In this document: in pieces, positions 6,795 through 53,465 of the stretch
Layout: the number at the start of each line of letters is the position of its first letter
How positions within the stretch are numbered: position 1 is the first letter of the stretch
NCBI GenBank assembly: GCA_963663765.2
Contig: CAXXUA010000004.1
Coordinates: 384,001 to 448,000, forward strand
Direction of reading: 5' to 3'
Origin: Candidatus Poribacteria bacterium
Lineage (GTDB): Bacteria > Poribacteria > WGA-4E > WGA-3G
DNA length: 64,000 bases
Translations under genes and position numbers: made by a program
Notes under the pieces: model-generated
Databases searched by the model: none
Told to the model about the DNA's origin: nothing
What the model saw: the letters and a program-made list of their open reading frames with translations, nothing else

Positions 6795-6868
<74 letters not shown>

Positions 6869-7034: not shown

Positions 7035-7035
7035 T

Positions 7036-7108: not shown

Positions 7109-7223
7109 TCGGTTCTTTAGTTTCGGAACTGATGCGTAAATCACCTTCTTTAGTGAAAACAAATACTCTTTGATGTCGTGTCATTTGAGAGTATTTTGCT
7201 TAATGCATTTGTTTCAGGAATAG

Positions 7224-7309
7224 GGGCGGGTGCTGGAATTTGGTAGACAGGATAGACTTAGGATCTATTGGGGTTATGCCTCGTGAGGGTTCAAGTCCCT
7301 CCTCGCCCA
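7224..7309 (+). tRNA. tRNA-Leu(TAG)
   Basis: GGGCGGG/CTCGCCC+A; ATAGA-CTTAGGA-TCTAT; long variable arm; directly upstream of tig. Confidence 0.95.
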
Positions 7310-22176: not shown

Positions 22177-22616
22177 AGCGTTTTTTTTAGTGTCTGTCTT
22201 ACCGTTTCTGGAGAAATGCTTTCCACGATTTCAAGTCTTACCAATTCTGACGCAAGTAGGCGTAAAGTCCATTTAGCAGCACCTTCGGGAGGTTCGCTAC
22301 AACTCAGTGCTATCAAGCGTGCTTCAGCTTCACCATCAAGTTTACGAGGTGTGGGAGGATGCTCTCGCTTAGCACGAAATAAGACACGAGAAAAACCACC
22401 TACAGCAAAACGCTTACGCACTTTCGCGACTGTCCTATCAGTGCACTCATACGCTTCAGCTATTTTCCCATCAGTCCAACCGGGACCATTGACATCTGAT
22501 TTCAGCAAAATATGAGCATTCCTTATCTTATACGCCTCTTTTTTACCTGTGTTTATACAATCTAACAACTCCTGCCGCTCCGAATCAGTGAGTTTTACAA
22601 CATATTTCTTAGTCAA
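22173..22616 (-). CDS. IS630 transposase OrfA (HTH)
   Basis: KYVVKLTDSER, RKLDGEAEARLIALSCSEPPEGAAKWTLRLLA, ISPETVRQTLKK; A8 slippery run at 22181-22188. Confidence 0.9.
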   Translation of the reverse strand: MTKKYVVKLTDSERQELLDCINTGKKEAYKIRNAHILLKSDVNGPGWTDGKIAEAYECTDRTVAKVRKRFAVGGFSRVLFRAKREHPPTPRKLDGEAEARLIALSCSEPPEGAAKWTLRLLASELVRLEIVESISPETVRQTLKKTL

Positions 22617-29499: not shown

Positions 29500-30291
29500 C
29501 TATGGATAAACCAACAGCGTATTTCGCTCAATGATGAGTGGTTTGGGACCACTATCAGGAAATTGTGCTGCCCATTCTCTTTCATCATAATCGCGTTTGA
29601 CAAAACAGGCACGGTGAGCGGGAACAGCATGCTTCAGTCCTATGCGTGTCGCCATTTTGACGCATCCATCATAGAATGGGAATTCTCCTTCATTGGGATG
29701 GTTTGTCAAGAAACCGACATCCGGTTTATGTGCTGCCACTGCTGAAATTAAGTCATCATGTTCAACAAAGTTGTTGATTGGGTCACCACTGAAATAGAGA
29801 CTGACACCATCACAGACAATGACAAACCCCAAGTGTGTTACATCTGGGGGTGCTATGTTAACAGAAGGATCACCATCAGGTGGTTTTGCATAGACTGCAT
29901 GGAGGACAGAATTGTTTAGTTTGACTTCATCCCCTGCACGAATCTGGGTGACATTTTCCTCTTTAACATCAGTTTCCGATAGTATTTTCTGGACACTTTC
30001 CACAGGTCCGATAAACCGCGTTGCATTAGAAGCCTCCCAAATGCGGGAAATTGATTCTGGACAAGTATGGTCACCGTGTGCATGTGTCAATAGTACATAA
30101 TCGGAGGGGAGTTCCGTTTCATCAAGTGGTGGTTCGGAGTGAATAAAGCGGTCTGAAGGACGGTTGTGTGGAAAATAGGGATCAATTTGGATTATGGTTC
30201 CAGACGAGTCTTTAATTGCGAAGCTGCTCTGTTCAAACCAGTGAACAGCAACAGTGTCTTTTGAAACGTTTAAATTAACGAGTGTATGCAT
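29500..30291 (-). CDS. MBL-fold metallo-hydrolase (UlaG-like)
   Basis: IDPYF, LLTHAHGDH, LYFSGD, AVPAH. Confidence 0.85.
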   Translation of the reverse strand: MHTLVNLNVSKDTVAVHWFEQSSFAIKDSSGTIIQIDPYFPHNRPSDRFIHSEPPLDETELPSDYVLLTHAHGDHTCPESISRIWEASNATRFIGPVESVQKILSETDVKEENVTQIRAGDEVKLNNSVLHAVYAKPPDGDPSVNIAPPDVTHLGFVIVCDGVSLYFSGDPINNFVEHDDLISAVAAHKPDVGFLTNHPNEGEFPFYDGCVKMATRIGLKHAVPAHRACFVKRDYDEREWAAQFPDSGPKPLIIERNTLLVYP

Positions 30292-30452
30292 AAATAATCC
30301 TTGATAAATGTTACATATAGATTCGACATTTTTGGATATCTGAGTTTCCACCTAAATGAGATTTTGTTGAATTAAATTTTTGGATTTACCATAAATGAGA
30401 CATGGCGAGGTACAGTGACCTCGCCATACAATTGAATTGTGAGGTAAGCACT

Positions 30453-31587: not shown

Positions 31588-31926
31588 TCAATAACCCCTT
31601 ATAATTTCTGATTGTGTTGCAAAGAATATACTGAAAATAGCTATGATGAGAAAAACGTAGAGTAAGATACTGATGATGAAGCCAATAAACGCAGATGAAA
31701 GTTGAATTTGTCGTGCTTTTGCCTTATATGCGTCAGTGTACAAATATGTTTCTTCATCATCCATTCCATAAGTTTTGCTTAACGGTGGATTCTGTTGGTA
31801 TATATAAGCAGCCAGAAGTCCAAAAACGGAAAGTGCTGCACCGACAATCACCCAAAGTAATTTGTGTGTATCAGTTTCTGCATCATTTTCAGCTTCTACT
31901 TGTATTTTTTGTCGGTTTGTATTCAT
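31588..31926 (-). CDS. small membrane protein, paralogue 1 of 3
   Basis: Shared pattern DAxxD..LLW..G..A....P(P)....YTDAYK.KAR.IQ plus TM helices. Confidence 0.75.
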   Translation of the reverse strand: MNTNRQKIQVEAENDAETDTHKLLWVIVGAALSVFGLLAAYIYQQNPPLSKTYGMDDEETYLYTDAYKAKARQIQLSSAFIGFIISILLYVFLIIAIFSIFFATQSEIIRGY

Positions 31927-32004
31927 AGATTCTTAATTGTATATAACATAATTGAGTTTAAAGGTTCGCATTACTTATGTTCCATCCATATTTGGGAATT
32001 CCAA

Positions 32005-32331
32005 TCAAGTGAATAGTTCTAACCAAACGAAGAACAAAATTATAATAACAAATTGGCTAACAAAACCTATAGCAGCCCAGACTTGTTGAATGCTTTTTGC
32101 CTTGATTTTATAGTTATCTGAATAATACGCAATGTATTCTGGTGTGCATTCAAATAAATATAAACGTGATGTTGGGGCTGATGGTTCAATTACAGCAGCA
32201 ATGATTACACCAAACAAGTTTCCAACGATACCCACAAGAAACCAAAGTAATTTGTTTATATCTTTTTTGGCATCATAATAGGCGTCAACGTGTGCTTTGT
32301 GCAAATCGTTGTTCATACTTATTTTCACCAT
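32005..32331 (-). CDS. small membrane protein, paralogue 2 of 3
   Basis: DAKKDINKLLW..SRLY..PEYIAYYSDNYKIKAKSIQ. Confidence 0.75.
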   Translation of the reverse strand: MVKISMNNDLHKAHVDAYYDAKKDINKLLWFLVGIVGNLFGVIIAAVIEPSAPTSRLYLFECTPEYIAYYSDNYKIKAKSIQQVWAAIGFVSQFVIIILFFVWLELFT

Positions 32332-32481
32332 CCAGAAAAAGCGGTTAGGTATTGAAAGTAACTATTGGATTCTACCTGAATAGCGCTTAGGATGTCAACG
32401 TTTTTTATTGTATGTCCAGAGTTAGTTGAAATCATAACACTTTGTCATGAACAACACATAAAACTCTTGATAACAGAAGAT

Positions 32482-32817
32482 TTACATAATCCATCGGTAA
32501 ATATTAGTTTCCATAACAAATATAACTACTACGACTAATAAAAGAACGACAACACCTAAACATGCAAAGTTAATCCGTATACTTCTCCCTTGTGCTATAT
32601 AAGCATCGGTGTAAAACGCGGTGTATTCTTGTGATTTTTCATATTCTTGTGATTTTACATATAAACGTATTGAGGGTGGCATAGGTTGACATATACATGC
32701 TATTAAAATAGCAATTATGCTGAATAAAAAACCTGCAATTAACCACAAAAAAGTGTTGATGTCTTGATATGCATCATTTACAGCATCAATGCGGGCTTGG
32801 TCTCGTGGATTGTTCAT
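32482..32817 (-). CDS. small membrane protein, paralogue 3 of 3
   Basis: DAYQDINTFLW..PPSIRLYVKSQEYEKSQEYTAFYTDAY. Confidence 0.75.
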   Translation of the reverse strand: MNNPRDQARIDAVNDAYQDINTFLWLIAGFLFSIIAILIACICQPMPPSIRLYVKSQEYEKSQEYTAFYTDAYIAQGRSIRINFACLGVVVLLLVVVVIFVMETNIYRWIM

Positions 32818-32945
32818 TTTACACCTTTTATTTTAAGTCTATTTTGATGAGATTATTCAGCTTTGTAGTTTGGATTGAGGCACGAAACCCAATAAAAAAA
32901 CGCTTGGACATACTGGAAAAGTTGAGTTTCACCTGCGGTTCAACC

Positions 32946-33285
32946 CATGGGTGTCAACTTAGCGATTCATATTATTTGTAGGAGGGAAACCTTGAAATCC
33001 CGATTTTCTCACTCAAGGTAGGCGTGCTTTGTAAGCGCGCCCCTCAACTGTACTCAACTGCAGGCGTGATTTGTAAGCGCGCCCCCTACTCACACGCACT
33101 CAACTGCAGGCGTGATTTGTAAGCGCGCGCCCCAACTGCACTCCCATGCAGGCGTGCTTTGTAAGCGCGCCGTTGCCAATAGTAAGCGCACCGTTGCCAA
33201 TCCTGTGTTTATCGGCGCACTTACAAAGCACGCATACCGGGATGGGATATTTAGCACTTGACTTTTTCTTAAGTTGACACCTATG
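32946..33285. mobile_element. MITE with CAT..ATG ends, 20-bp flanking direct repeat and REP-array cargo
   Basis: TIR CATGGGTGTCAACTTA / TAAGTTGACACCTATG; DR gtttcacctgcggttcaacc at 32926-32945 and 33286-33305. Confidence 0.75.
33018..33237. repeat. GTAG-type REP-like cluster (4 direct copies + 1 inverted)
   Basis: g(t/c)aggcgtg(c/a)tttgtaagcgcgc x4 and ggcgcacttacaaagcacgcatac. Confidence 0.8.
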
Positions 33286-33317
33286 GTTTCACCTGCGGTT
33301 CAACCCAACATACAAGA

Positions 33318-33964
33318 CTAATTTTGTTCTGCAGTTTTAAAACCGTAAATCTCAATTTCACGAATTCTGCCTGGTCTATGCATAGGTGTGCTAATATTGG
33401 AAATAACTGTTCTATCAAGCCTTCCTGAACCTAATAAGGTACTAAATGTAAATGTTTTTGACTTTTGAACAGGTGAATTAAAAGTTCTCAATATACGAAT
33501 CTTTATCTGATTAGTATAATATGGCTTCCTTAGTTTAAGGTCGATTATTTTAGACCTTACATCCCGCATCTCTATAATATGTTCCCAATTTTCTCCTTTT
33601 GCCCTTTTACCCTCATTCACATATACAACAAAATGTTTTAAATTATCCGAGTGAAGTATAATCCTATAGATTTTTTTCCTTTCTGGTAATGAAACAACCA
33701 CTATAGAATCATTTCGGAAAAATTCTGCATTATCCTTCGCTGCAGACACTTTTGCTGCATACTCTTTATTATTGATGTTAACGATAACGCTGCTTCTCCT
33801 ATAGTCTCAAAATTTCCATCAATCATTTCCGGACTCGTTGATTGTACTCCATCCATAAGTGCATAATTATTACTCCATTCTTGTGCTGAAAAAATCGTGC
33901 TACATCCAGTAATCATACAAGAAATACAAAACATAAAGAAGCAATCGAAACATTTATTGAACAT
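33318..33964 (-). pseudogene. frameshifted lipoprotein with galactose-binding/discoidin-like domain
   Basis: Lipobox ITG-C, WSNNYALMDGV..MIDGN; frameshift near 33790 continues VVVSLPERKKIYRIILHS..IREIEIYG. Confidence 0.65.
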
Positions 33965-34021: not shown

Positions 34022-35605
34022 TTATACGGTTTGCAAGTTGCTTATAGAAAGCAACCAGGGTTCATCTACCAAAGCACGCAAAAATATCCCGCGTGCGCCA
34101 TTTAAGTCTCTGTCCATCTTGAGTCCCATGCTATCTTTTATTATCTTTCGTCCACCGAGTGATTTTCTAATCTCACCATTCCACGAAACTGTTTTTGATG
34201 TGTATGCTTCACAGACATCAATGACGAGACATCCAGTCTCTTTCGCTTTGTGCTTTAGAAAATGTTTGAATCTGTAGTGCGACAGTGTCAACATTTGTCG
34301 GGCAGACTTCTTGTGTAGTTTGCGGTTTCCACGCATTACCATATCTGAAGTCTCAAAAGTAGGGAGTAGGATAATATCAAAGGTATCCACAAGGAAACGT
34401 GCTATTTTATGATGCAACTCGTCAACAAGATATCTGATACGTTTTCTGATGCGATTTGCAGCACGTCTCATATTCTTGCGTGATTGTTGTGTCGCTTTTA
34501 TTGCACGGGATAAAAGATTATCAAGGTATGAACAAAGTCTTTGAATCCGATTGATAGCATGGTGTCCAAGCCATCCGAAACCACGCTCATGGAAATATGT
34601 GAGGAATGTTCTCACGCCAGGGTCTAAAGCAACAACACTTCCGTTTGGTTTTCGCTTCGGAGTTGTCACAGTATAGGAAACACAGAGATAGTATTTATCA
34701 TTCTCTTTCACGAGGCGTGAGTCACAGATATTATCAGGTAACATCTCTGACATTTTGAGATCACCAAGCACTGTGTGATAAACACCGCGAGGTTTTATAG
34801 CAGACTTTGGTATGAAAATACTATCTGATGGATGACGTTTGGATTTGAAAAAAACAGACTGATATTGACCTGTTTTCTTGCATTTTCGCTTTGCTTCTCG
34901 GACAGCAATACAAGCGTCACGGATAGCAACAGATTTCACTTGATACGGTGTTTCTTTGCTCCAATCAGGAAGATCGTGAAGAATACCTGTTTTTATCGCT
35001 TTCCAATTCGCTTTTGTGTCTGTTTCGTTCAACAAAGCAATTGTTTTATTATAAGTAAAACGTGCTGTGCCAAACCACTGACGCAGTGTTTCACGTTGTT
35101 CTGTTGTCGGATAAACTCTTATCTTCTTTGATTTTGTCACGGTAACTTCGGAGTCCGTGCATTCTGTAACTGAAGACGTGCAGGATTGCGAGAAGATCCG
35201 ACGTGAGTTCTTCTTGCGGACTGTGTTCTGTTTGATCGAGAACCACGAGTTCGCCACCGTTTTGTTCAATGAGGTATTGTATAAGGTCGATACCGAAGCG
35301 GGCGAGTCTATCCCGATGGGCAATAACAACTTGGAGCTTATCACCTTGCATAAGCCGTTCCAATAAGGTTCTAAGCCCTTTTCTTTTGAAGTTGATTCCG
35401 CTTCCGATGTCTCGGATAACTTCTGCTTCGGGGTAGATACTTCGCATATATTCAACTTGTCGTTCAAGGTCTTCTCTTTGCTTTGTGCTGGATACTCTGC
35501 AGTAGCAAACAGTTGCAATTGATGTGGATTTGCTTTTGATGTATCCGTCAACATCATAGCGTCTGTGTCCGCCTCCTGTGCGGATAATATCAATCTTTCC
35601 TTCAT
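34022..35605 (-). CDS. tnpB: RNA-guided endonuclease TnpB, pro-Fanzor-type; start uncertain (ATG 35605 with SD, or GTG 35140)
   Basis: KIRVYPTTEQ..WFGTARFTYN; RuvC-I ALDPGVRTF; LLPTF in place of canonical Glu; EAYTSKT; RuvC-III DRDLNGARGI. Confidence 0.9.
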   Translation of the reverse strand: MKERLILSAQEADTDAMMLTDTSKANPHQLQLFATAEYPAQSKEKTLNDKLNICEVSTPKQKLSETSEAESTSKEKGLEPYWNGLCKVISSKLLLPIGIDSPASVSTLYNTSLNKTVANSWFSIKQNTVRKKNSRRIFSQSCTSSVTECTDSEVTVTKSKKIRVYPTTEQRETLRQWFGTARFTYNKTIALLNETDTKANWKAIKTGILHDLPDWSKETPYQVKSVAIRDACIAVREAKRKCKKTGQYQSVFFKSKRHPSDSIFIPKSAIKPRGVYHTVLGDLKMSEMLPDNICDSRLVKENDKYYLCVSYTVTTPKRKPNGSVVALDPGVRTFLTYFHERGFGWLGHHAINRIQRLCSYLDNLLSRAIKATQQSRKNMRRAANRIRKRIRYLVDELHHKIARFLVDTFDIILLPTFETSDMVMRGNRKLHKKSARQMLTLSHYRFKHFLKHKAKETGCLVIDVCEAYTSKTVSWNGEIRKSLGGRKIIKDSMGLKMDRDLNGARGIFLRALVDEPWLLSISNLQTV

Positions 35606-35678
35606 TTGCCAACCTCCGTAAATGGTCAGGTGTATAATCCAGCAGCTCACTTGCTTTGCGCGCTGATACATAAGTCAT
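35091..35678 (-). CDS. tnpA: IS607 transposase (MerR-type HTH + serine recombinase)
   Basis: RTGGGHRRY, YCRVSS (catalytic Ser), DLERQ, DIGSGINFKRKG, DRLARFG, EELTSDLLAILHVFS. Confidence 0.96.
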   Translation of the reverse strand: MTYVSARKASELLDYTPDHLRRLANEGKIDIIRTGGGHRRYDVDGYIKSKSTSIATVCYCRVSSTKQREDLERQVEYMRSIYPEAEVIRDIGSGINFKRKGLRTLLERLMQGDKLQVVIAHRDRLARFGIDLIQYLIEQNGGELVVLDQTEHSPQEELTSDLLAILHVFSYRMHGLRSYRDKIKEDKSLSDNRTT

Positions 35679-39581: not shown

Positions 39582-41288
39582 ATGCTAACGAAGTTGATCT
39601 GTCGAAATTTTAAGATGTTTGACGAAATAGAAGTTGAATTAGGGAATCCGGTTGTCTTCATCGGTCCAAATAATTCTGGTAAATCGACAGCGTTGCAAGC
39701 TTTGGCATTATGGGAGATTGGTCTAAGACGGTGGAATGAAATTCGAAAGGGAAAATCTATTCCAGAAAAACAACCGGGTGTTGTCATTAACCGTCGTGAC
39801 CTAATCTCTGTTCCAGTGCCAGAAGCACGATTGCTTTGGCGAAATTTGCAAGTGCGAGCTAAAAAGAACATTCGTATAGACATTATTGTTGAAGGTGTTA
39901 CCAATAATAAGACATGGCAATGTGGTTTAGAATTTGATTATGCAAATCAGGAATCCATTTATTGTGGTCCGTTAAGAAATACAGAAGGAAGTGGTAAAGT
40001 TAGCAGTCGAATGTCAATTCCTGAAGAAGTAGGAAACATGTCTTTTGCTTTTCTTCCACCGATGTCAGGACTTGCATCTAATGAAACACGACTTGATCCA
40101 GGGGCTATTAATGTTCGGATCGGAGAAGGACGAACAGCAGAGGTGCTTCGTAATCTTTGTTACCAAGTAGCGGAGAAATCTGAGACTTGGGATAGACTGT
40201 GTGAGCAAATCAGAGATTTGTTTGGTGTTAATCTTGACTTACCCAATTATATTCAGGAACGTGGCGAGGTTACAATGAACTATCGTGATAACTCTGGAAA
40301 TGCTTTAGACCTTTCCTCTTCAGGTCGTGGTTTTCAACAGACATTACTATTACTTGCGTATATCGCTGCACATCCTGGTTCTGTCCTATTACTTGATGAA
40401 CCTGATGCTCATCTTGAAATCCTTCGGCAAAGGCAAATTTATCAAGTACTCACAGAATCAGCTCGTGAATATGATAGTCAGATTATTGCTGCCAGTCATT
40501 CTGAAGTGATTCTGAATGAAGCTGCAGACCGGGATGTTGTAATTGCTTTTCTTGGAACCCCTCACCGAATTGATGACCGTGGGAGTCAGCTGCTGAAATC
40601 GCTGCGAGATATTGGTTTTGAACAATACTATCAGGCAGAACAACAGGGATGGGTTCTCTATCTTGAAGGATCAACGGATCTTGCAATTCTGCGATCATTT
40701 GCAAAGAAACTATCACATCCTGCTGCAAGTCTGTTAGAACGTCCTTATGTTGATTATGTTTCCAATCAACCAACAAAAGCTCGTGAACGCTTTTATGGAT
40801 TAAGGGAAGCAAAAAAAGATCTATGTGGGTTCTGTTTGTTTGATCGGATTACTGATGAACTCAAGACACGTCCAGAATTAATTGAGTACGCATGGAAGCG
40901 ATGTGAAATTGAGAATTACATAGTTTACGACAAACAAGTGCTAATAGATTGGGCTTGGGAAGAAGCACCTAATCATGAAGTAGGTCAATTATTTGGTGCA
41001 AACTGGATAACAATTATGGAAGACACAATTAAAGAAATAGAAGATGCCCTTGAAACACTAGGGAAAGGTTCTCCATGGTCACCGGTTGTTAAAGTAAGTA
41101 CTGATTTTCTTGACCCGTTGTTCGCTTCATTCTTCAAAAAGATGGAGTTACCTAACCTCATGCAAAAGACAAATTATCATACACTCGTCAAATTTGTACC
41201 TACAGATCAAATTGATCCAGAAGTTTCAGTTGTACTTGACGCGATATTAGAAGTAGCGAATAAGGCAAAACCGCTTAGTAGTTTGTAA
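39582..41288 (+). CDS. ABC/AAA_21-type ATPase fused to a TOPRIM-like domain (OLD/DUF4435-like)
   Basis: RNFK, GPNNSGKS, SSGRG signature, LLLDEPDAHL, ASHS; C-terminal LYLEGSTD, LFDR, RCEIENY. Confidence 0.8.
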   Translation: MLTKLICRNFKMFDEIEVELGNPVVFIGPNNSGKSTALQALALWEIGLRRWNEIRKGKSIPEKQPGVVINRRDLISVPVPEARLLWRNLQVRAKKNIRIDIIVEGVTNNKTWQCGLEFDYANQESIYCGPLRNTEGSGKVSSRMSIPEEVGNMSFAFLPPMSGLASNETRLDPGAINVRIGEGRTAEVLRNLCYQVAEKSETWDRLCEQIRDLFGVNLDLPNYIQERGEVTMNYRDNSGNALDLSSSGRGFQQTLLLLAYIAAHPGSVLLLDEPDAHLEILRQRQIYQVLTESAREYDSQIIAASHSEVILNEAADRDVVIAFLGTPHRIDDRGSQLLKSLRDIGFEQYYQAEQQGWVLYLEGSTDLAILRSFAKKLSHPAASLLERPYVDYVSNQPTKARERFYGLREAKKDLCGFCLFDRITDELKTRPELIEYAWKRCEIENYIVYDKQVLIDWAWEEAPNHEVGQLFGANWITIMEDTIKEIEDALETLGKGSPWSPVVKVSTDFLDPLFASFFKKMELPNLMQKTNYHTLVKFVPTDQIDPEVSVVLDAILEVANKAKPLSSL

Positions 41289-45447: not shown

Positions 45448-46647
45448 ATGGGAAGGTCTTTTGAGAAATCGTTAGCATGGCGTGAACGTGCAAGAGCAGC
45501 GTTAGTCGCTGGAGGGCAAGTGCATAAACAGAGCAATCCTCCGCAACCGATTATGATCGCTGGTGGGAAAGGTTCACACTTCTGGGATGCTGATGGAAAT
45601 GATTATATTGACTATCTGATGGGTTATGGTCCGATGATTCTCGGACATGCTTATCCTACCGTGATTGAAGCGGTTGCTAAAGCATTGGAACGCGGAAATG
45701 TATATAACGTAGGGCACACGTTGGAAATTGAACTTGCTGAGAAACTGATTGAGATAATTCCATCTGCAGAGAGAGTCGCTTACTTTGTTGGTGGTTCCGA
45801 TGCAACGACTGGTGCTTTGAAGTTTGCACGCGCTTATACAGAAAAGGAGAAGGTGATCCGCTGCGGATACCACGGTTGGCACGATTGGTGTCATAACACT
45901 CGTGGACACTTACTCAGTAGTGCTGCAACAACGTTAAGCGTTCCTTTTAACGATATGGATTCACTGGAGGATCTCTTCAAGGAACATACAGGGGAAATTG
46001 CGTGCATGATAATGGAACCTTCTGGACACGACTTACCTGCAGATGGATATTTGGAAAATGTTAAATCAATTGTAAATGCAAACGATGCGCTGTTGATTTT
46101 TGATGAGGTTAAAACTGGATTCCGATACGGTTTAGGTGGTGCGCAAAAGTATTTCGGTGTAACACCCGATATGTCGGTCTTTGGAAAGGCACTTGCTAAT
46201 GGGTTTGCCACTGCTGTTGTTGTTGGTAAGCAAGAAATAATGGACGAAGTTGCTGACGTTTGGGTTGCTGCTACCTTCCACGGAGAGGTCTCACTTGTTG
46301 CTGCCGCTATTGCTACAATTGCAGAATTGGAAGCGAAGGACGGTGTTGCTTTTATGTGGAAACAGGGAGAAAAACTGTTAAATGGTTTTATGGAAATGAC
46401 GCACCGATTGAGTATTAATCATGCCCGTTTTGGTGGGATCGGTCCGATGCCTTTTTTCGGTTTGAATGCAAACAACGATCAACAAGGTCGGTTCCGTAGA
46501 ATATTTTATGAACAAACATTAGATGGAGGATTATATCTACCTGAAGGACATATTTGGTTCATGTCTCTTTCTCACACGGATGAAGACATTGCAAAGACAC
46601 TGAGTGTAACAGAAGATGCACTCAAACACGCTAAAGCGAGAACATAA
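45448..46647 (+). CDS. class III aminotransferase (GSA aminomutase-like)
   Basis: WDADGNDYIDY, GYHGWHD, LIFDEVKTGFR, FGKALANG (PLP Lys). Confidence 0.9.
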   Translation: MGRSFEKSLAWRERARAALVAGGQVHKQSNPPQPIMIAGGKGSHFWDADGNDYIDYLMGYGPMILGHAYPTVIEAVAKALERGNVYNVGHTLEIELAEKLIEIIPSAERVAYFVGGSDATTGALKFARAYTEKEKVIRCGYHGWHDWCHNTRGHLLSSAATTLSVPFNDMDSLEDLFKEHTGEIACMIMEPSGHDLPADGYLENVKSIVNANDALLIFDEVKTGFRYGLGGAQKYFGVTPDMSVFGKALANGFATAVVVGKQEIMDEVADVWVAATFHGEVSLVAAAIATIAELEAKDGVAFMWKQGEKLLNGFMEMTHRLSINHARFGGIGPMPFFGLNANNDQQGRFRRIFYEQTLDGGLYLPEGHIWFMSLSHTDEDIAKTLSVTEDALKHAKART

Positions 46648-47665: not shown

Positions 47666-48400
47666 ATGATGACAGCTAAAAATGGAAATCCACAACCATC
47701 TCCGAATATAGATGTCGGCTATCGCATAGGTCATGCACCGACTTTAGAAACGGATATATACTATCCAGAATCGGATGGAAAACCTATGGCAGAGACAGAC
47801 CTACATCGAGATGCAATGATAAAAACGATTCAAATACTTTCTGAGTATTACAAAGAATACTGGGATGTGTATATATCTGGTAATCTCATGATGTATTATA
47901 TCAAAGGCAATCCTCGGAAATCTATTTCACCTGATGTATTTGTCGCTTTTGGAGTCGGTAAAAAACAAAAAAGAACATACCAAATTTGGAATGAGGGTAA
48001 ACCACCAGACTTTGTCTTAGAGTTTTCAAGTGAAAATACTTATAGAAATGATCTCAATGCAAAAAAGGATTTATATGCGTCAATAGGAATAACTGAGTAT
48101 TTCCTTTACGACCCTGAAAGATGCCATTTACCATCACCGCTGATGGGATTTCGTCTTGTAGATGGTGAGTATGAAGACATTCCTCTTGATGCAGATGGTC
48201 ACCTGTTTTCAGATTCGTTAGGTTTGTCTTTGCGTTTACGAGGAGAGGGTCTGGGTTTCTATGATACTACAAAGGACAGATGGTTAGAAACACCCGCTGA
48301 AGCAGCAGCAATCCGAGCAGAACAAGAAGCTGCAGCAAGAAAGCAAGCAGAAGCAGAAATAGCAAGACTCCAAGAGGAAATTAATCAGTTAAAAGCATAA
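47666..48400 (+). CDS. Uma2 (DUF820) family putative PD-(D/E)XK endonuclease, copy 1
   Basis: YPESDGKPMAETDLH, SPDVFV, PDFVLEFSS, K..LY...GI.EYFL.DP; short coiled-coil tail. Confidence 0.92.
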   Translation: MMTAKNGNPQPSPNIDVGYRIGHAPTLETDIYYPESDGKPMAETDLHRDAMIKTIQILSEYYKEYWDVYISGNLMMYYIKGNPRKSISPDVFVAFGVGKKQKRTYQIWNEGKPPDFVLEFSSENTYRNDLNAKKDLYASIGITEYFLYDPERCHLPSPLMGFRLVDGEYEDIPLDADGHLFSDSLGLSLRLRGEGLGFYDTTKDRWLETPAEAAAIRAEQEAAARKQAEAEIARLQEEINQLKA

Positions 48401-48480
48401 TTGACATTCTCAAATTCAAATCCTCAAGACTAATTGTAATTAGACTCTGTCGCTATTCTACATACTAAGGAGGTGCGATA

Positions 48481-49254
48481 ATGGCAGATAAAATAGGGAA
48501 ATCTAATAATTCATATATTTCTGATACCGAAAAACGCCTACGATATGCACCGACTTTAGAAACGGATATATACTATCCAGAATCGGATGGGAAACCTATG
48601 GCAGAGACAGACCTACATCGAGATGCAATGATAAAAACGATTCAAATACTTTCTGAGTATTACAAAGAATACTGGGATGTGTATATATCTGGTAATCTCA
48701 TGATGTATTATATCAAAGGTAATCCTCGGAAATCTATTTCACCTGATGTATTTGTCGCTTTTGGAGTCGGTAAAAAACAAAGAAGAACATACCAAATTTG
48801 GAATGAGGGTAAACCACCAGACTTTGTCTTAGAGTTTTCAAGTGAAAATACTTATAGAAATGATCTCAATGCAAAAAAGGATTTATATGCGTCAATAGGA
48901 ATAACTGAGTATTTCCTTTACGACCCTGAAAGATGCCATTTACCATCACCTCTGATGGGATTTCGTCTTGTAGATGGTGAGTATGTAGACATTCCTCTTG
49001 ATGGTGATGGTCACCTGTTTTCAGATACATTAGGTTTGTCATTACGTTTGCGAGGAGAGGGTCTGAGTTTCTATGATACTACAAAGGACAAATGGTTGGA
49101 AACACCCGCTGAAGCAGCAGCAATCCGAGCAGATGAGGAAAAAACACGAGCAGAGCAAGAAGCTGCACGAGCAGAACAAGAAGCTGCAGCAAGAAAGCAA
49201 GCAGAAGCAGAAATAGCAAGACTCCAAGAGGAAATTAATCAGTTAAAAGCATAA
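48481..49254 (+). CDS. Uma2 family endonuclease, copy 2
   Basis: Near-identical to copy 1 from APTLETD onward; tail +2 heptads. Confidence 0.92.
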   Translation: MADKIGKSNNSYISDTEKRLRYAPTLETDIYYPESDGKPMAETDLHRDAMIKTIQILSEYYKEYWDVYISGNLMMYYIKGNPRKSISPDVFVAFGVGKKQRRTYQIWNEGKPPDFVLEFSSENTYRNDLNAKKDLYASIGITEYFLYDPERCHLPSPLMGFRLVDGEYVDIPLDGDGHLFSDTLGLSLRLRGEGLSFYDTTKDKWLETPAEAAAIRADEEKTRAEQEAARAEQEAAARKQAEAEIARLQEEINQLKA

Positions 49255-49334
49255 TTGACATTCTCAAATTCAAATCCTCAAGACTAATTGTAATTAGACC
49301 CTGTCGCTATTCTACATATTAAGGAGGCGCGATA

Positions 49335-50129
49335 ATGGCAGATAAAATAGGGAAATCTAATAATTCATATATTTCTGATACCGAAAAACGCCTACGATAT
49401 GCACCGACTTTAGAAACGGATATATACTATCCAGAATCGGATGGGAAACCTATGGCAGAGACAGACCTACATCGAGATGCAATGATAAAAACGATTCAAA
49501 TACTTTCTGAGTATTACAAAGAATACTGGGATGTGTATATATCTGGTAATCTCATGATGTATTATATCAAAGGTAATCCTCGGAAATCTATTTCACCTGA
49601 TGTATTTGTCGCTTTTGGAGTCGGTAAAAAACAAAGAAGAACATACCAAATTTGGAATGAAGGTAAACCGCCAGACTTTGTGTTAGAGTTTTCAAGTGAA
49701 AATACTTATAGAAATGATCTCAATACAAAAAAGGATTTATATGCGTCAATAGGAATTACTGAGTATTTCCTTCACGACCCTGAAAGACGCCATTTACCAT
49801 CACCTCTGATGGGATTTCGTCTTGTAGATGGTGAGTATGTAGACATTCCTCTTGATGCAGATGGTCACCTGTTTTCAGATACATTAGGTTTGTCATTGCG
49901 TTTGCGAGGAGAGGGTCTGGGTTTTTACGATAATACAACGGAAAAATGGTTGGAAACACCCGCTGAAGCAGCAGCAATCCGAGCAGATGAGGAAAAAACA
50001 CGAGCAGAACAGGAAGCTGCTGCAAGACAGACCGCTGAATCTATAGCACTGCAAGAAGCCGCTGCAAGAAAGCAAGCAGAAGCAGAAATAGCAAGACTCC
50101 AAGAAGAAATTAATCAGTTAAAAGCATAA
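49335..50129 (+). CDS. Uma2 family endonuclease, copy 3
   Basis: Near-identical; tail +3 heptads relative to copy 1. Confidence 0.92.
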   Translation: MADKIGKSNNSYISDTEKRLRYAPTLETDIYYPESDGKPMAETDLHRDAMIKTIQILSEYYKEYWDVYISGNLMMYYIKGNPRKSISPDVFVAFGVGKKQRRTYQIWNEGKPPDFVLEFSSENTYRNDLNTKKDLYASIGITEYFLHDPERRHLPSPLMGFRLVDGEYVDIPLDADGHLFSDTLGLSLRLRGEGLGFYDNTTEKWLETPAEAAAIRADEEKTRAEQEAAARQTAESIALQEAAARKQAEAEIARLQEEINQLKA

Positions 50130-50209
50130 TTGACATTCCCAAATTCAAATCCTCAAGACTAATTGTAATTAGACCCTATCGCTATTCTACATATTAAGGA
50201 GGCGCGATA

Positions 50210-51025
50210 ATGGCAGATAAAATAGGGAAACCTAATACTTCATATATTACTGATACCGAAAAACGCCTGCGATACGCACCGACTTTAGAAACGGATATAT
50301 ACTATCCAGAATCGGATGGGAAACCTATGGCAGAGACAGACCTACATCGAGATGCAATGATAAAAACGATTCAAATACTTTCTGAGTATTACAAAGAATA
50401 CTGGGATGTGTATATATCTGGTAATCTCATGATGTATTATATCAAAGGTAATCCTCGGAAATCTATTTCACCTGATGTATTTGTCGCTTTTGGAGTCGGT
50501 AAAAAACAAAGAAGAACATACCAAATTTGGAATGAAGGTAAACCGCCAGACTTTGTCTTAGAGTTTTCAAGTGAAAATACTTATAGAAATGATCTCAATG
50601 CAAAAAAGGACTTATATGCGTCAATAGGAATAACTGAGTATTTCCTTCACGACCCTGAAAGACGCCATTTACCATCACCACTGATGGGATTTCGTCTTGT
50701 AGATGGTGAGCATGCAGACATTCCTCCCGATGCAGATGGTCACCTGTTTTCAGATACATTAGGTTTGTCATTGCGTTTGCGAGGAGAGGGTCTGGGTTTT
50801 TACGATAATACAACGGAAAAATGGTTGGAAACACCCGCTGAAGCAGCAGCAATCCGAGCTGATGAGGAAAAAACACGAGCAGAGCAAGAAGCTGCACGAG
50901 CAGAACAAGAAACTGCTGCAAGAAAGACAGCTGAATCTTTAGCACAACAAGAAGCAGATGCAAGAAAGCAAGCAGAAGCAGAAATAGCAAGACTTCAAGA
51001 GGAAATTAATCAGTTAAAAGCATAA
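50210..51025 (+). CDS. Uma2 family endonuclease, copy 4
   Basis: Near-identical; tail +4 heptads relative to copy 1. Confidence 0.92.
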   Translation: MADKIGKPNTSYITDTEKRLRYAPTLETDIYYPESDGKPMAETDLHRDAMIKTIQILSEYYKEYWDVYISGNLMMYYIKGNPRKSISPDVFVAFGVGKKQRRTYQIWNEGKPPDFVLEFSSENTYRNDLNAKKDLYASIGITEYFLHDPERRHLPSPLMGFRLVDGEHADIPPDADGHLFSDTLGLSLRLRGEGLGFYDNTTEKWLETPAEAAAIRADEEKTRAEQEAARAEQETAARKTAESLAQQEADARKQAEAEIARLQEEINQLKA

Positions 51026-51105
51026 TTGACATTCTCAAATTCAAATCCTCAAGACTAATTGTAATTAGACCCTGTCGCTATTCTACATATTAAGGAGGCG
51101 CGATA

Positions 51106-51978
51106 ATGGCAGATAAAATAGGGAAATCTAATAATTCATATATTTCTGATACCGAAAAACGCCTACGATATGCACCGACTTTAGAAACGGATATATACTA
51201 TCCAGAATCGGATGGGAAACCTATGGCAGAGACAGACCTACATCGAGATGCAATGATAAAAACGATTCAAATACTTTCTGAGTATTACAAAGAATACTGG
51301 GATGTGTATATATCTGGTAATCTCATGATGTATTATATCAAAGGTAATCCTCGGAAATCTATTTCACCTGATGTATTTGTCGCTTTTGGAGTCGGTAAAA
51401 AACAAAGAAGAACATACCAAATTTGGAATGAAGGTAAACCGCCAGACTTTGTGTTAGAGTTTTCAAGTGAAAATACTTATAGAAATGATCTCAATATAAA
51501 AAAGGATTTATATGCGTCAATAGGAATTACTGAGTATTTCCTTCACGACCCTGAAAGACGCCATTTACCATCACCTCTGATGGGATTTCGTCTTGTAGAT
51601 GGTGAGTATGTAGACATTCCTCTTGATGCAGATGGTCACCTGTTTTCAGATACATTAGGTTTGTCATTGCGTTTGCGAGGAGAGGGTCTGGGTTTTTACG
51701 ATAATACAACGGACAAATGGTTGGAAACACCCGCTGAAGCAGCAGCAATCCGAGCTGATGAGGAAAAAACACGAGCAGAGCAAGAAGCTGCACGAGCAGA
51801 GCAAGAAACTGCACGAGCAGAGCAAGAAACTGCACGAGCAGAACAAGAAACTGCTGCAAGACAGACAGCTGAATCTTTAGCACAACAAGAAGCAGATGCA
51901 AGAAAGCAAGCAGAAACAGAAAACGCACGGCTACAAAAGGAAATTGAGCGGTTGAAGGCACTAACCACATCCATCTAA
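51106..51978 (+). CDS. Uma2 family endonuclease, copy 5
   Basis: Near-identical; tail +6 heptads relative to copy 1; distinct last residues. Confidence 0.92.
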   Translation: MADKIGKSNNSYISDTEKRLRYAPTLETDIYYPESDGKPMAETDLHRDAMIKTIQILSEYYKEYWDVYISGNLMMYYIKGNPRKSISPDVFVAFGVGKKQRRTYQIWNEGKPPDFVLEFSSENTYRNDLNIKKDLYASIGITEYFLHDPERRHLPSPLMGFRLVDGEYVDIPLDADGHLFSDTLGLSLRLRGEGLGFYDNTTDKWLETPAEAAAIRADEEKTRAEQEAARAEQETARAEQETARAEQETAARQTAESLAQQEADARKQAETENARLQKEIERLKALTTSI

Positions 51979-52033: not shown

Positions 52034-52738
52034 CTAAAAAGTCTTTATCAGTTCCGGCAATTCAGAGAGACTCCGAATCGTTTCATGCCATCTGCCGACT
52101 TGCGAACCTTCACGATCAATTAGAATTGGACGAATACCGACGTTCTTTGCTCCGATAATATCCGCTTCGTAAGTATCCCCAACATGCACAGTTTTCTCTG
52201 CTGAAACACCAACTGCCTTAAGTGTATATTTAAAGATGTGTGGATCTGGTTTTGCTGACCTAACACGTTCGTCGTGTGATGAGGTTATCGTATCAAAATA
52301 CGTGTCAATCCCCAACCGTTCTGCAAGGGGGTCTAATGGGGTATCCCAATTTGAAACAATTGCTAACTTGTACCCATCATCCCGTAAACGTTGAAGTGTC
52401 GGCACAACGTCGTCGTAGAGTTTAGCAACATTTGCAGCAAAAAGTGAGTGTCCTGCTTGCAACAATTCCCATGCCATTTGATCCGCAAGTTCCTTAACAC
52501 CAAGATTTTTCATCAAATTGCTGTAACTTTCAACAATTCTATCCATCGTTGATAACAGTGAATGATTGGCAGGATCAGTGTCAGACGCTTCTGCAAACAG
52601 ATTCAGGACAACCTCACCATAGAGATCCCAATCAATTTCAAAGTTGTATCTATCGGCTATCTTCTGAAGACTCTCCTCAAGCGGCAGTCCCCAAACACAT
52701 AGCGTATAATAAAAATCAAAGAATATGGCTTTTATCAT
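52034..52738 (-). CDS. HAD-family hydrolase
   Basis: [36 protein letters not shown]. Confidence 0.9.
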
Positions 52739-53465
52739 GTTGTTTTGCCTTTCGTTTATAAGGGGTTGGGTCAGTGATACCAGCATCTTCAAAACCTTTC
52801 TTACGAAGTTGGCAGCTATCACAACTACCACATGCCCTACCCTCTGTGTCAGGATCATAACAGCTGAGTGTGAGGCTATAGTCTACACCGAGTGCTGTAC
52901 CGATACTGATAATTTCTGCTTTCGTTTTTTCAAGAAGTGGTGTTCTGATAGTAAGTTCTGTATCGGCTTCTACTGCAGCTTGCGTTGCAAGGTTTGCCAT
53001 CTTTTGATAGGCGAGGATATATTCAGGACGGCAATCGGGATAACCGCTGTAGTCAATAGCATTCACACCGATAAATATGGTATCTGCAGTAAGCACTTCA
53101 GCCCATGCAAGCGCGTAGGACAAGAAGATAGTATTCCGTGCGGGTACATAAGTTATCGGAATGTTCCCAGACATGTCAATTTCTGATCTCTCTTTAGGTA
53201 CATCAATATCCGCGGTCAATGCTGATGCACCAAAGATACGTAGATCAATATCAATGATGTTATGTTGTTTTGCACCAAGTGCCTTTGCTATGTTTTCTGC
53301 GCTTATGAGTTCTATTCTGTTTCGTTGCCCGTACCGAAAACTCATGACATAGGTATCATAACCCTCTGAACGTGCGATTGCTAAGGTTGTTGATGAATCC
53401 AATCCGCCGCTGAGTAGGACAACAGCTTTTTTTGATTTATTGTAATGAGTTGTTTTTGTAGTCAA
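52716..53465 (-). CDS. queC: 7-cyano-7-deazaguanine synthase
   Basis: [38 protein letters not shown]. Confidence 0.97.

What the first reader, a model, noticed from the sequence alone, without database searches (positions are those of the whole stretch)
47666..51978. Five tandem near-identical Uma2 nucleases forming a monotonic ladder of coiled-coil lengths
Seen: between AAAIR and RKQAE the copies carry 1, 3, 4, 5 and 7 heptads in strict 5'->3' order. Repeat periods are 812, 854, 875 and 896 bp, all differing by multiples of 21 nt, and every frame is intact. The tails are assembled from a small kit of 21-nt modules (ADEEKTR, AEQEAAR, AEQETAR, RQTAESL, AQQEADA). Random unequal crossover would not obviously give an ordered ladder. 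Inference: a graded set of stalk lengths for an oligomeric nuclease (ruler or hetero-oligomer repertoire), or a polar amplification process adding heptads each round. Uma2 function is unknown, so this may be an undescribed diversifying system.
Basis: partly seen in the sequence, partly recalled or inferred. Interest (0 to 1): 0.78.

Follow-up and report, generated by a model that had tools for sequence, protein, structure and literature searches.

The report
Tandem Uma2 nuclease genes, graded stalks
Five head-to-tail copies of a nuclease-like gene of unknown function really do carry helical tails of steadily increasing length, but ordinary unequal recombination and repeat slippage in a gene array can produce this ladder without any special diversifying machinery.

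Summary
Five intact + strand ORFs (244, 257, 264, 271 and 290 aa) all match Pfam Uma2. They are separated by four 80-nt spacers and carry 1, 3, 4, 5 and 7 heptads between AAAIR and RKQAE. Repeat periods are 812, 854, 875 and 896 nt.

- **Array structure:** copy 1 has a private head and copy 5 a private tail end. Copies 2-4 have the copy-5-type head and the copy-1-type end, the signature of unequal crossover between two older paralogues.
- **Concerted evolution:** cores are 96-98% identical within the array but about 84% identical to the single syntenic gene in a related Poribacteria MAG.
- **Gene conversion:** copies 3 and 5 differ at 2 of 728 nt across copy 4, which argues against polar stepwise amplification.
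- **The ladder:** chimeras between a short-tailed left copy and a long-tailed right copy have intermediate tails in positional order. In a toy model 12-100% of all-distinct arrays ascend, against 0.8% for random order.
- **Family context:** heptad-number variation is general in this subfamily. One 4.25-Mb contig encodes at least 10 paralogues with tails of 78-155 aa.
- **Protein model:** a parallel coiled-coil homodimer is predicted.

Function remains unknown, and selection on stalk length is neither shown nor excluded.

The parts
47666..48400 (+). Copy 1 (244 aa), Uma2 nuclease-fold gene. It has a private 23-codon head (type A), a type-A tail end and 1 heptad.
48401..48480 (+). Spacer 1 (80 nt). 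It has AAGGAGG upstream of the next ATG and is homologous to, but diverged from, the region upstream of copy 1.
48481..49254 (+). Copy 2 (257 aa): type-B head, type-A end, 3 heptads. Its tail is two B-type modules followed by the A-type unit of copy 1.
49255..49334 (+). Spacer 2 (80 nt), identical to spacer 4.
49335..50129 (+). Copy 3 (264 aa): type-B head, type-A end, 4 heptads. Its spacer, head and core differ from those of copy 5 at 2 of 728 nt, but its tail modules carry private substitutions.
50130..50209 (+). Spacer 3 (80 nt), 2 differences from spacers 2 and 4.
50210..51025 (+). Copy 4 (271 aa): type-B head with 5 private changes, type-A end, 5 heptads. Its tail is that of copy 5 minus two AEQETAR units.
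51026..51105 (+). Spacer 4 (80 nt).
51106..51978 (+). Copy 5 (290 aa): type-B head, private type-B tail end (orthologous to the end of the single gene in L001), 7 heptads.
48317..48337 (+). Heptad tract of copy 1 (1 x 21 nt).
49129..49191 (+). Heptad tract of copy 2 (3 x 21 nt).
49983..50066 (+). Heptad tract of copy 3 (4 x 21 nt).
50858..50962 (+). Heptad tract of copy 4 (5 x 21 nt).
51754..51900 (+). Heptad tract of copy 5 (7 x 21 nt). It includes a 21-nt tandem repeat of 4.0 copies at 96% matches (51770-51854).
47735..51915 (+). The homogenised block. It runs from codon 24 of copy 1 to the RKQAE codons of copy 5. Outside it, the array edges are diverged and unique.

Best explanation
The locus is a chromosomal cassette of five Uma2-family (PF05685, PD-(D/E)xK fold) paralogues in a Poribacteria genome.

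**Origin of the array.** It grew from two older tandem paralogues. Type A is copy 1: private head, short tail, end ...EEINQLKA. Type B is copy 5: long tail, end ...ERLKALTTSI. Growth was by unequal homologous recombination, so every inner copy carries the B head, the 80-nt junction spacer and the A end.

**Maintenance.** Continuing crossover and gene conversion keep the nuclease cores nearly identical (concerted evolution).

**The tails.** Each tail is encoded by 21-nt in-frame repeats. They change in number by recombination within the repeat tract and by replication slippage.

**The ladder.** Chimeras formed between a short-tailed left copy and a long-tailed right copy have intermediate tails and are inserted between their parents, so an ascending ladder is a by-product. 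A recent +2 slippage in copy 5 sharpened it.

**The protein.** Each protein is most likely a homodimer: two nuclease-fold cores joined to a parallel coiled-coil stalk of about 5 to 12 nm. Biochemical role is unknown, possibly a solo toxin or defence nuclease.

**Shown versus inferred.** Shown: the anatomy, the chimeric pattern, the homogenisation, purifying selection and the family-wide length variation. Inferred: the order of events, the dimer model and any activity.
For: **Chimeric anatomy**
- Copy 1's upstream region and first ~23 codons are unique, and copy 5's last ~20 codons are unique.
- Copies 2-4 share the copy-5 head and the copy-1 end. Copy 1 against copies 2-4 shows 0-1 differences in the 63-nt end, against 14 differences for copy 1 against copy 5.

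**Comparison with the syntenic relative**
- The syntenic locus L001 in a Poribacteria MAG has the same neighbours: PhyH-HEAT, PhyH, HAD, QueC, MFS and NuoF-like genes.
- It holds one Uma2 gene with an A-like head (59/69 nt to copy 1) and a B-like end (69/77 nt to copy 5, against 49/63 to the A ends).
- Nucleotide identity between copies 1 and 5 is 0.73 in the head, 0.96 in the core and 0.81 in the end. Core identity to L001 is about 0.84. The A/B duplication is therefore at least as old as the species split, and the cores have been homogenised since.

**Recombination**
- 3 of 66 informative site pairs fail the four-gamete test.
- Copies 3 and 5 differ at 2 of 728 nt, while copy 4 between them differs from copy 5 at 18.

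**Tails**
- The tail of copy 2 is two B-type modules plus the exact A-type unit of copy 1.
- The tail of copy 4 is that of copy 5 minus two identical units. TRF finds 4.0 copies at 96% matches in copy 5.

**Toy model**
Among arrays with five distinct lengths, 12-100% were ascending across 18 parameter sets, against 0.8% for random order.

**Selection**
32 variable sites in 582 nt, 14 synonymous and 18 non-synonymous. dN/dS is 0.18-0.33 in 9 of 10 pairs; the tenth has dS = 0.

**Family context**
- Makarova et al. [quoted passage not shown]
- Tails of 22-155 aa occur in the 102 of 120 close homologues where the landmark motif was found.
- 10 paralogues listed with one 4,252,156-bp contig have tails of 78-155 aa, all equal to 1 mod 7, with median core identity 0.95.
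- 127 of 150 best 50%-cluster representatives carry a stretch of at least 28 aa rich in A/E/R/Q/K/D.

**Fold**
The AF2 model has mean pLDDT 85.3 and a helix at 209-289. Foldseek hits are the DUF820 entries 6okh, 9y1l, 3ot2, 3ijm and 1wdj, with E from 3.8e-08 to 1.7e-03.

**Dimer model**
- ipSAE 0.73, best of 3 controls 0.00.
- The mark was reached by 20 of 30 proteins solved as pairs of one chain and by 1 of 23 solved as single chains. These counts hold only roughly, because my own alignment was used.
- The runs agree in at least 97% of contacts, and partner pLDDT is at least 83.
Against: **History is not a clean series of single-switch chimeras**
- Copy 2 alternates between A-like and B-like patches in the core.
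- Copy 3's tail modules carry 6 private differences in 42 nt relative to copy 5, although its upstream 728 nt are almost identical to copy 5.
- The stepwise model therefore explains copies 2 and 4 directly, but copy 3 only loosely.

**Limits of the toy model**
- It is my own model. It assumes that a hybrid tail length lies between those of its parents.
- All-distinct arrays were rare in it: 61 to 29,233 of 200,000 runs.

**Limits of the comparison**
- L001 comes from a short-read-style contig (k141 in its title). Its single copy could be a collapsed array.
- Only one syntenic relative could be examined. Array order in other genomes could not be checked.

**Limits of the dimer model**
- The core-core part of the interface may be recalled from solved DUF820 entries that hold two chains.
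- The variable heptads put Ala, Thr, Arg and Glu at the modelled contact positions. That part could instead be a single stable helix.
Confidence: 0.7

Rival explanations
1. The set of stalk lengths is itself selected. The five dimers, or up to 15 homo- and heterodimers, give a repertoire of reach or ruler lengths for a nuclease that acts at a set distance from whatever the stalk tip binds. The array is kept as a length library.
For: - All five frames are intact, all have a strong ribosome-binding site, and all are under purifying selection.
- Near-identical paralogues that differ mainly in heptad number recur: 10 proteins listed with a 4.25-Mb contig show 8 distinct lengths, and 3 listed with a 2.54-Mb contig differ in length.
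- The stalk is a hallmark of a large subfamily (127 of 150 representatives).
- Only 1 of the variable residues (position 101, K/R) lies in the predicted core interface, so mixed dimers are sterically plausible.
- Coiled-coil repeat number is a proven ruler in type I restriction enzymes: the TAEL repeats of HsdS set an N6 or N7 gap (PMC3874165, passage read).
Against: - No test here shows selection on length. 21-nt in-frame repeats vary by slippage whether or not the variation matters.
- In the modelled parallel, in-register dimer, stalk length does not change the spacing of the two active sites.
- The three closest orthologue clusters (P0003, P0004, P0006) each show a 3-heptad tail, and L001 shows one gene at the locus.
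- Gene order has no known functional meaning for such a repertoire.
- No partner gene is conserved next to the array.
Confidence: 0.15
2. Assembly artefact: the true genome has fewer copies, for example two, and the assembler strung strain alleles or mis-resolved repeats into five.
For: - The source is an uncultivated Poribacteria lineage, so the window probably comes from a metagenome assembly.
- No read data could be examined.
- Copies 3 and 5 are almost identical over 728 nt, a hard case for assemblers.
- The related MAG shows one copy.
Against: - Inner copies carry a head and spacer that differ strongly from copy 1's head and upstream region (57-58 differences in 80 nt). Alleles of a single-copy gene cannot produce them, so at least two tandem genes must exist.
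- Each copy has a distinct tail architecture. Private substitutions occur in copies 1, 2, 4 and 5, while copy 3's private changes lie in its tail.
- All four spacers are exactly 80 nt, and all frames are intact.
- The homologue table lists the window's own proteins with a 1,193,507-bp contig. I infer long reads from that length.
- Short-read assemblers usually collapse such arrays; they rarely expand them (general knowledge).
Confidence: 0.07
3. A polar amplification process copies the last unit and adds heptads at each round, so position records age.
For: - The ascending order is 1, 3, 4, 5, 7.
- Several core sites split as 1|2345, 12|345 or 123|45 along the array.
Against: - Neighbours are not the most similar pairs. 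Copies 3 and 5 differ at 2 of 728 nt, whereas copies 4 and 5 differ at 18.
- Tail and core histories disagree. The tails group copies 4 and 5, while the cores group copies 3 and 5.
- The added modules differ in kind and in position from step to step.
- No enzyme that could drive such a process lies nearby.
Confidence: 0.03

Closest known systems
Uma2 / DUF820 / COG4636 paralogue cassettes (cyanobacteria, Thermus)
   Same: - Same Pfam family, with all five copies above the cut-off.
- Same fold as the solved DUF820 entries.
- Same habit of lying in cassettes of paralogous genes and of expanding within genomes (PMC2701414, PMC1274311 and PMC9403480, passages read).
- Function unknown there too.
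   Different: - This subfamily adds a C-terminal heptad-repeat helix of about 35-82 residues. The solved chains (146-190 residues as listed) do not contain it.
- The copies are far more alike (96-98% in the core) than typical cassette paralogues.
- My searches found no paper describing the stalk or its length variation. Supplements were not opened.
Concerted evolution of tandem gene arrays by unequal crossover and gene conversion (textbook process; recalled, no paper read here)
   Same: - Inner copies are chimeras of the two edge copies.
- The edges escape homogenisation.
- Identity within the array exceeds identity to the orthologue.
- Non-neighbour conversion tracts are present.
   Different: The unit contains an internal 21-nt minisatellite, so recombination also grades the length of a protein domain along the array.
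Type I restriction enzyme HsdS coiled-coil spacer (EcoR124I / EcoR124II TAEL repeats)
   Same: An in-frame short repeat in a coiled coil of a nuclease-related system changes helix length. There it works as a ruler, setting an N6 or N7 gap (PMC3874165, passage read).
   Different: - HsdS has an antiparallel coiled coil linking two DNA-reading domains and works with HsdM and HsdR.
- Here the model is a parallel, in-register homodimer.
- No HsdM or HsdR partners turned up in the window.
- The repeat is 7 residues, not 4.
PADLOC candidate single-gene defence system PDC-S03
   Same: Copies 1 and 5 match four PDC-S03 models each, with best E-values of 9.1e-10 and 5.9e-09.
   Different: - The matches are weak and partial, covering only part of the nuclease core.
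- PDC-S03 is only a candidate system, and no paper was found for it.
- The array does not sit in a clear defence island, although L001 carries an MjaI-like restriction-modification pair about 1.7 kb upstream of its Uma2 gene.

Membership tests
Uma2 family (Pfam PF05685 / DUF820 / COG4636) | Match to the family profile above the curated cut-off | tested here: met
   5 of 5 copies score 60.8-66.1 bits against a cut-off of 27. The L001 orthologue scores 68.4 bits.
Uma2 family (Pfam PF05685 / DUF820 / COG4636) | Restriction-endonuclease-like (PD-(D/E)xK) fold | tested here: met
   The AF2 model has mean pLDDT 85.3. The top Foldseek PDB hits are DUF820 entries 6okh, 9y1l, 3ot2, 3ijm and 1wdj, all with probability 1.00. 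phmmer against PDB finds 6okh at E = 0.0014.
Uma2 family (Pfam PF05685 / DUF820 / COG4636) | Conserved acidic and lysine residues of the predicted active site retained | tested here: inconclusive
   D36, D89, E118, D128 and K132 (copy-5 numbering) are invariant in 80 aligned homologues and in all five copies. Which of them are catalytic is recalled, not tested. The classic K of (D/E)xK is S120 here.
Uma2 family (Pfam PF05685 / DUF820 / COG4636) | Nuclease activity | not testable with these tools
   None of the passages I read reports an assay.
Tandem array under concerted evolution (unequal crossover / gene conversion) | Head-to-tail repeats whose inner units are chimeras of the two edge units | tested here: met
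   Copies 2-4 have the copy-5 head and the copy-1 end, and the spacers are identical in length.
Tandem array under concerted evolution (unequal crossover / gene conversion) | Paralogues more alike than orthologues although the duplication is older | tested here: met
   Core identity is 0.96-0.98 within the array and about 0.84 to L001. Between copies 1 and 5, head identity is 0.73 and end identity 0.81. Only one relative was compared.
Tandem array under concerted evolution (unequal crossover / gene conversion) | Direct signs of recombination between copies | tested here: met
   3 of 66 site pairs fail the four-gamete test. Copies 3 and 5 differ at 2 of 728 nt across copy 4.
Dedicated diversifying systems (diversity-generating retroelement, invertible shufflon, phase-variable simple repeats) | Reverse transcriptase with template repeat, or a site-specific recombinase or invertase, next to the variable gene | tested here: not met
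   No such Pfam domain is found in the 56 window ORFs scanned: 9 and 47. The only mobile-element genes are an IS630-like fragment at 21745-22616 and a TnpB-like ORF at 34022-35671, both more than 12 kb away.
Dedicated diversifying systems (diversity-generating retroelement, invertible shufflon, phase-variable simple repeats) | Repeat changes that switch the frame or expression on and off | tested here: not met
   The repeat unit is 21 nt, so every change keeps the frame. All five frames are open.
Type I restriction HsdS-type coiled-coil ruler | Antiparallel coiled coil between two DNA-recognition domains, with HsdM and HsdR partners | tested here: not met
   The model is parallel and in register, with contacts such as 252-252, 245-245 and 266-266. 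This is a prediction only. No HsdM or HsdR domains appear in the window scans.
Known anti-phage defence system (PADLOC) | Match to a model of a validated system, and defence-island context | tested here: inconclusive
   There are only weak hits to the candidate PDC-S03, with best E-values of 9.1e-10 (copy 1) and 5.9e-09 (copy 5). The neighbours are metabolic: aminotransferase, PhyH, HAD, QueC. A GajA/AriA-like ATPase lies 6 kb upstream.

The most novel reading that the evidence does not exclude
'Stalked' Uma2 nucleases may form a family whose coiled-coil stalk is a deliberately mutable length element encoded by a 21-nt minisatellite. On this reading, genomes keep cassettes of near-identical paralogues as a library of stalk lengths. 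Homodimers and mixed dimers would place the nuclease at different distances from whatever the conserved stalk tip binds, for instance in defence against mobile DNA. The window's ladder would then be one snapshot of a selected length repertoire. The order itself would still be a by-product of recombination.
Probability: 0.12. Interest if true: 0.7.

Novelty: new variant of a known kind. Interest (0 to 1): 0.35.

Why it matters
Uma2 is among the larger bacterial families still without a function. One search finds 6,694 50%-identity cluster representatives at E <= 0.001 for this query alone.

This locus matters for three reasons.
- It shows that an apparently designed ladder can come from plain unequal crossover between two unlike founders. 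That is a useful caution for genome scans.
- It flags a large stalked subfamily in which near-identical paralogues differ almost only in the number of heptads. Nature has supplied a ready-made length series for testing what the stalk does.
- It is a clean bacterial example of concerted evolution, with the array edges preserved.

If stalk length turned out to be selected, that would be a new way for a nuclease family to diversify.

Tried and rejected
- **Array order in other genomes.** One is syntenic (L001). The other is a remote partial match at 39% identity in an archaeal MAG, which I did not use.
- **Cluster look-up.** A look-up of cluster members, which might have given accession order for the 10 paralogues of the 4.25-Mb contig, did not complete because the shared database is switched off.
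- **Plasmids.** tblastn against plasmids found 15 records, each with a single place and below 40% identity, and no arrays.
- **NCBIfam.** It has no model that matches the Uma2 copies.
- **Literature.** Searches for PDC-S03 and for heptad or coiled-coil length variation in tandem paralogues returned 0 papers. Poribacteria/DUF820 searched together listed no paper holding both terms among the 15 shown.
- **Promoters and terminators.** The scan gave no excess of promoter-like sites (10 found, 14.5 +/- 3.6 expected). The terminator-like excess (10 found, 3.3 expected) is mostly the same weak in-gene hairpin repeated in each copy, so it says nothing about transcription units.
- **Landmark motif.** A motif used to measure tails worked in 102 of 120 close homologues but in only 13 of 150 distant representatives. 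I replaced it with a composition measure.

Full report
**1. What is there**

The window carries five intact + strand ORFs: 47666-48400, 48481-49254, 49335-50129, 50210-51025 and 51106-51978. They encode 244, 257, 264, 271 and 290 aa. All five match Pfam Uma2 (PF05685) at 60.8-66.1 bits against a cut-off of 27.

The four spacers are each exactly 80 nt and nearly identical. Each has AAGGAGG a few bases before the next ATG. Start-to-start spacings are 812, 854, 875 and 896 nt.

Between AAAIR and RKQAE the copies carry 1, 3, 4, 5 and 7 heptads. These are built from 21-nt modules: ADEEKTR, AEQEAAR, AEQETAR, RQTAESL and AQQEADA, plus the variants AEQEAAA, AEQETAA, RQTAESI, RKTAESL and ALQEAAA.

**2. 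Where it sits**

- The rest of the window is ordinary chromosome: trigger factor, ClpP, ClpX, Lon, EF-G and a tRNA cluster. It has 41% G+C.
- No other Uma2 gene is present among the 47 further ORFs scanned.
- The nearest homologues are named Candidatus Poribacteria.
- The homologue table lists the window's own proteins with a contig of 1,193,507 bp.
- The immediate neighbours are metabolic: a PhyH-HEAT protein, a class-III aminotransferase, PhyH, a HAD hydrolase and QueC.

**3. Anatomy of the array**

An alignment of the five units with their flanks shows three things.
- Copy 1's upstream region and first 23 codons are unique.
- Copy 5's last ~20 codons (...TENARLQKEIERLKALTTSI) are unique.
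- Copies 2-4 carry the copy-5-type head (MADKIGK...) and the copy-1-type end (...AEIARLQEEINQLKA).

In numbers:

| Comparison | Segment | Differences |
|---|---|---|
| Copy 1 vs copies 2-4 | 63-nt end | 0-1 |
| Copy 1 vs copy 5 | 63-nt end | 14 |
| Copy 1 upstream region vs the spacers | 80 nt before the start | 57-58 |

This is the pattern expected when an [A][B] pair of tandem paralogues expands by unequal crossover. Every new unit must carry the B head, the junction spacer and the A end.

**4. A relative**

Its gene order is the same: PhyH-HEAT, PhyH, Uma2, HAD, QueC, a conserved 175-aa ORF, MFS and a NuoF-like gene. It holds one Uma2 gene.

That gene has an A-like head and a B-like end, and carries 3 heptads.

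| Segment | Comparison | Identity |
|---|---|---|
| Head | L001 vs copy 1 | 59/69 nt |
| End | L001 vs copy 5 | 69/77 nt |
| End | L001 vs the A ends | 49/63 nt |
| Core | L001 vs each copy | about 0.84 |
| Core | within the array | 0.96-0.98 |
| Head | copy 1 vs copy 5 | 0.73 |
| End | copy 1 vs copy 5 | 0.81 |

So the A/B duplication is at least as old as the split from the L001 lineage, and the cores have been homogenised since. This is concerted evolution.

L001's single A-head/B-end gene is what a deletion by unequal crossover would leave. It is also what a short-read assembler would leave after collapsing an array, and I cannot tell which applies. The two next-closest orthologue clusters (P0004, P0006) have the same head and end types and 3 heptads.

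**5. Recombination among the copies**

- The 582-nt core has 32 variable sites.
- Many split along the array as 1|2345 or 12|345. One site at the start of the tail splits as 123|45.
- Three core sites group copies 1, 2 and 4 against copies 3 and 5.
- 3 of 66 informative pairs fail the four-gamete test.
- Copies 3 and 5 are identical in spacer, head and the first 291 nt of the core, and differ at 2 sites in the rest. That is 2 of 728 nt. Copy 4, which lies between them, differs from copy 5 at 18.
- The tails tell a different story (read). Copies 4 and 5 share their RQTAESL/AQQEADA-type modules with 1 difference in 42 nt. Copy 3's versions differ from copy 5's at 6 of 42.

Core and tail histories are therefore discordant, which means gene conversion. 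A polar process in which each round copies the last unit and adds heptads is not supported.

**6. Why a ladder**

Consider one-unit unequal crossover. Copy i+1 on one chromatid pairs with copy i on the other. The new unit takes its left part from copy i+1 and its right part from copy i, and is inserted between them.

If the flanks anchor the pairing, a crossover inside the heptad tract gives a tail no shorter than the shorter parent and no longer than the longer parent. Starting from a short-tailed left gene and a long-tailed right gene, lengths then stay ordered. This is my own argument, not a published result that I read.

Two copies fit directly.
- The tail of copy 2 is two B-type modules followed by the exact 21-nt unit of copy 1.
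- The tail of copy 4 is that of copy 5 minus two identical AEQETAR units, followed by the A end.

Copy 5's tract is a 4.0-copy tandem repeat at 96% matches, which points to recent slippage. Without those two units, copies 4 and 5 would tie. Copy 3 fits only loosely.

I ran a toy simulation. It starts at [1,7] and grows to five copies, with or without multi-unit shifts and slippage, over 18 parameter sets of 200,000 runs each.
- Among arrays with five distinct lengths, 12-100% were ascending.
- Random order gives 0.8%. With the two ends taken as given, the figure is 1/6.
- All-distinct arrays were themselves uncommon: 61 to 29,233 of 200,000 runs.
- The model is only as good as its anchoring assumption.

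**7. The protein**

- **Monomer model.** AlphaFold2 with an 80-sequence alignment gives mean pLDDT 85.3. It shows a mixed alpha/beta core and one unbroken helix from 209 to 289.
- **Fold.** The core matches the structural-genomics DUF820 entries 6okh, 9y1l, 3ot2, 3ijm and 1wdj. All are uncharacterised.
- **Dimer model.** Two copies of copy 5 are predicted to pair core to core, with a parallel, in-register coiled coil from about residue 208 to 287. ipSAE is 0.73 and the best of 3 controls is 0.00. The mark was reached by 20 of 30 proteins solved as pairs of one chain and by 1 of 23 solved as single chains. These counts hold only roughly, because my own alignment was used. The runs agree in at least 97% of contacts, and partner pLDDT is at least 83.
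- **Caveats.** This supports binding but does not show it. The core interface may be recalled from solved two-chain DUF820 entries.
- **Contact residues.** In the variable heptads the modelled contact positions are Ala, Thr, Arg and Glu. Only the last three heptads have Leu and Ile. The variable part could be a weak alanine coil or a single stable helix capped by a short zipper.
- **Stalk lengths.** At 0.15 nm per residue the helices would span about 5.2, 7.3, 8.4, 9.4 and 12.3 nm.
- **Geometry.** In a parallel dimer the stalk length does not alter the spacing of the two active sites.
- **Selection.** dN/dS in the core is 0.18-0.33. Residues invariant in 80 homologues (D36, D89, E118, D128, K132) are kept in all five copies. 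All copies look functional.

**8. The wider family**

- Tails of 22-155 aa made of RAEQEAA-like heptads occur throughout the close homologues. The landmark motif was found in 102 of 120 of them.
- Ten proteins listed with one 4,252,156-bp contig have cores of median 95% identity and tails of 78, 78, 92, 113, 127, 127, 134, 141, 148 and 155 aa, all equal to 1 mod 7.
- Three proteins listed with a 2,537,461-bp contig (tails of 80, 87 and 101 aa) and a close relative from another contig (P0050, 136 aa) behave alike.
- Of the best 150 representatives at 50% clustering, 127 have a stretch of at least 28 aa rich in A/E/R/Q/K/D. In 126 of them it lies in the last 40% of the protein.
- The stalk and its variable heptad number are therefore traits of a large subfamily, not of this locus.
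- Whether those paralogues are tandem, and in what order, could not be checked.

**9. What is known**

From passages I read:
- Uma2/COG4636 is expanded in cyanobacteria and Thermus, and its function is unknown (PMC1274311).
- It is a predicted PD-(D/E)xK endonuclease (PMC3424549).
- It is a likely solo toxin that 'mostly form[s] cassettes of paralogous genes' (PMC2701414).
- It is present in 15-17 copies in some Thermosynechococcus strains (PMC9403480).

A tandem cassette is thus known in kind. I found no description of the heptad stalk or of its length variation (searches; only listings and passages were seen, and no supplements).

The nearest functional analogy is the TAEL repeat in the HsdS coiled coil, which sets the N6 or N7 gap of EcoR124I/II (PMC3874165). 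The geometry and the partners differ.

PADLOC gives weak hits to the candidate PDC-S03, for which I found no paper.

**10. Verdict**

The ordered ladder needs no new mechanism: it is what unequal crossover, gene conversion and 21-nt slippage produce from a short-left/long-right founder pair.

What remains interesting is the stalked Uma2 subfamily, with its recurrent sets of near-identical paralogues that differ in stalk length. Whether that variation is used is open.

Interest is 0.35, and the novelty class is a new variant of a known kind.

Noticed in passing
L001 6455-8206 (- strand): In the related Poribacteria MAG, an MjaI-like restriction endonuclease (PF09568, E = 2.4e-64) and an N6/N4 DNA methylase (PF01555) sit between the PhyH-HEAT gene and PhyH. 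The window has a class-III aminotransferase (45448-46647) at that position. The neighbourhood just upstream of the Uma2 locus is therefore variable and can host a restriction-modification pair.
   Followed up: partly
window 39582-41288 (+): A 568-aa AAA_21/AAA_15 ATPase matches PADLOC models NsnB (6.4e-24), AriA (1.2e-21), MAD3 and GajA. It may be a defence-type ATPase lying 6 kb upstream of the array, between an oxidoreductase and an aldo/keto reductase.
   Followed up: partly
window 34022-35671 (-) and 31588-33964 (-): A TnpB/Cas12f-like ORF has OrfB_IS605, HTH_OrfB_IS605 and Cas12f1-like TNB domains. Next to it is a run of five small ORFs without Pfam matches.
   Followed up: no
window 21745-22616 (-): An IS630-like transposase is split into two overlapping ORFs, HTH_32/HTH_23 and then DDE_3. 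This is either a frameshifted or a degraded element.
   Followed up: no
window 14941-21435 (+): A 2,164-aa protein has a gingipain-type Peptidase_C25 domain, its propeptide and a C-terminal FlgD Ig-like domain.
   Followed up: no
window 6711-7309 (+); 1918-2003; 30162-30252: A cluster of six tRNA genes (Pro, Arg-tct, His, Arg-tct, Lys, Leu) includes two adjacent tRNA-Arg(tct) copies. ARAGORN alone also calls a tRNA-Leu(cag) at 1918-2003 and an odd tRNA-His(atg) at 30162-30252. The latter falls inside the Lactamase_B ORF at 29500-30351. Rfam does not report either at its gathering score.
   Followed up: no
window 52034-52858 (-): The HAD hydrolase ORF as listed (274 aa) overlaps the end of QueC (52716-53465) and is 40 residues longer at its N-terminus than the L001 orthologue (234 aa, starting MIKAVFFDF). 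The real start is probably the internal ATG.
   Followed up: no
window 48431-48444 and the same place in each spacer: Each 80-nt spacer contains a small A+T-rich palindrome (CTAATT-GT-AATTAG). The spacer begins with TTGACA immediately after the stop codon. The consensus scan did not call a promoter there. A possible operator or promoter element was not tested.
   Followed up: no
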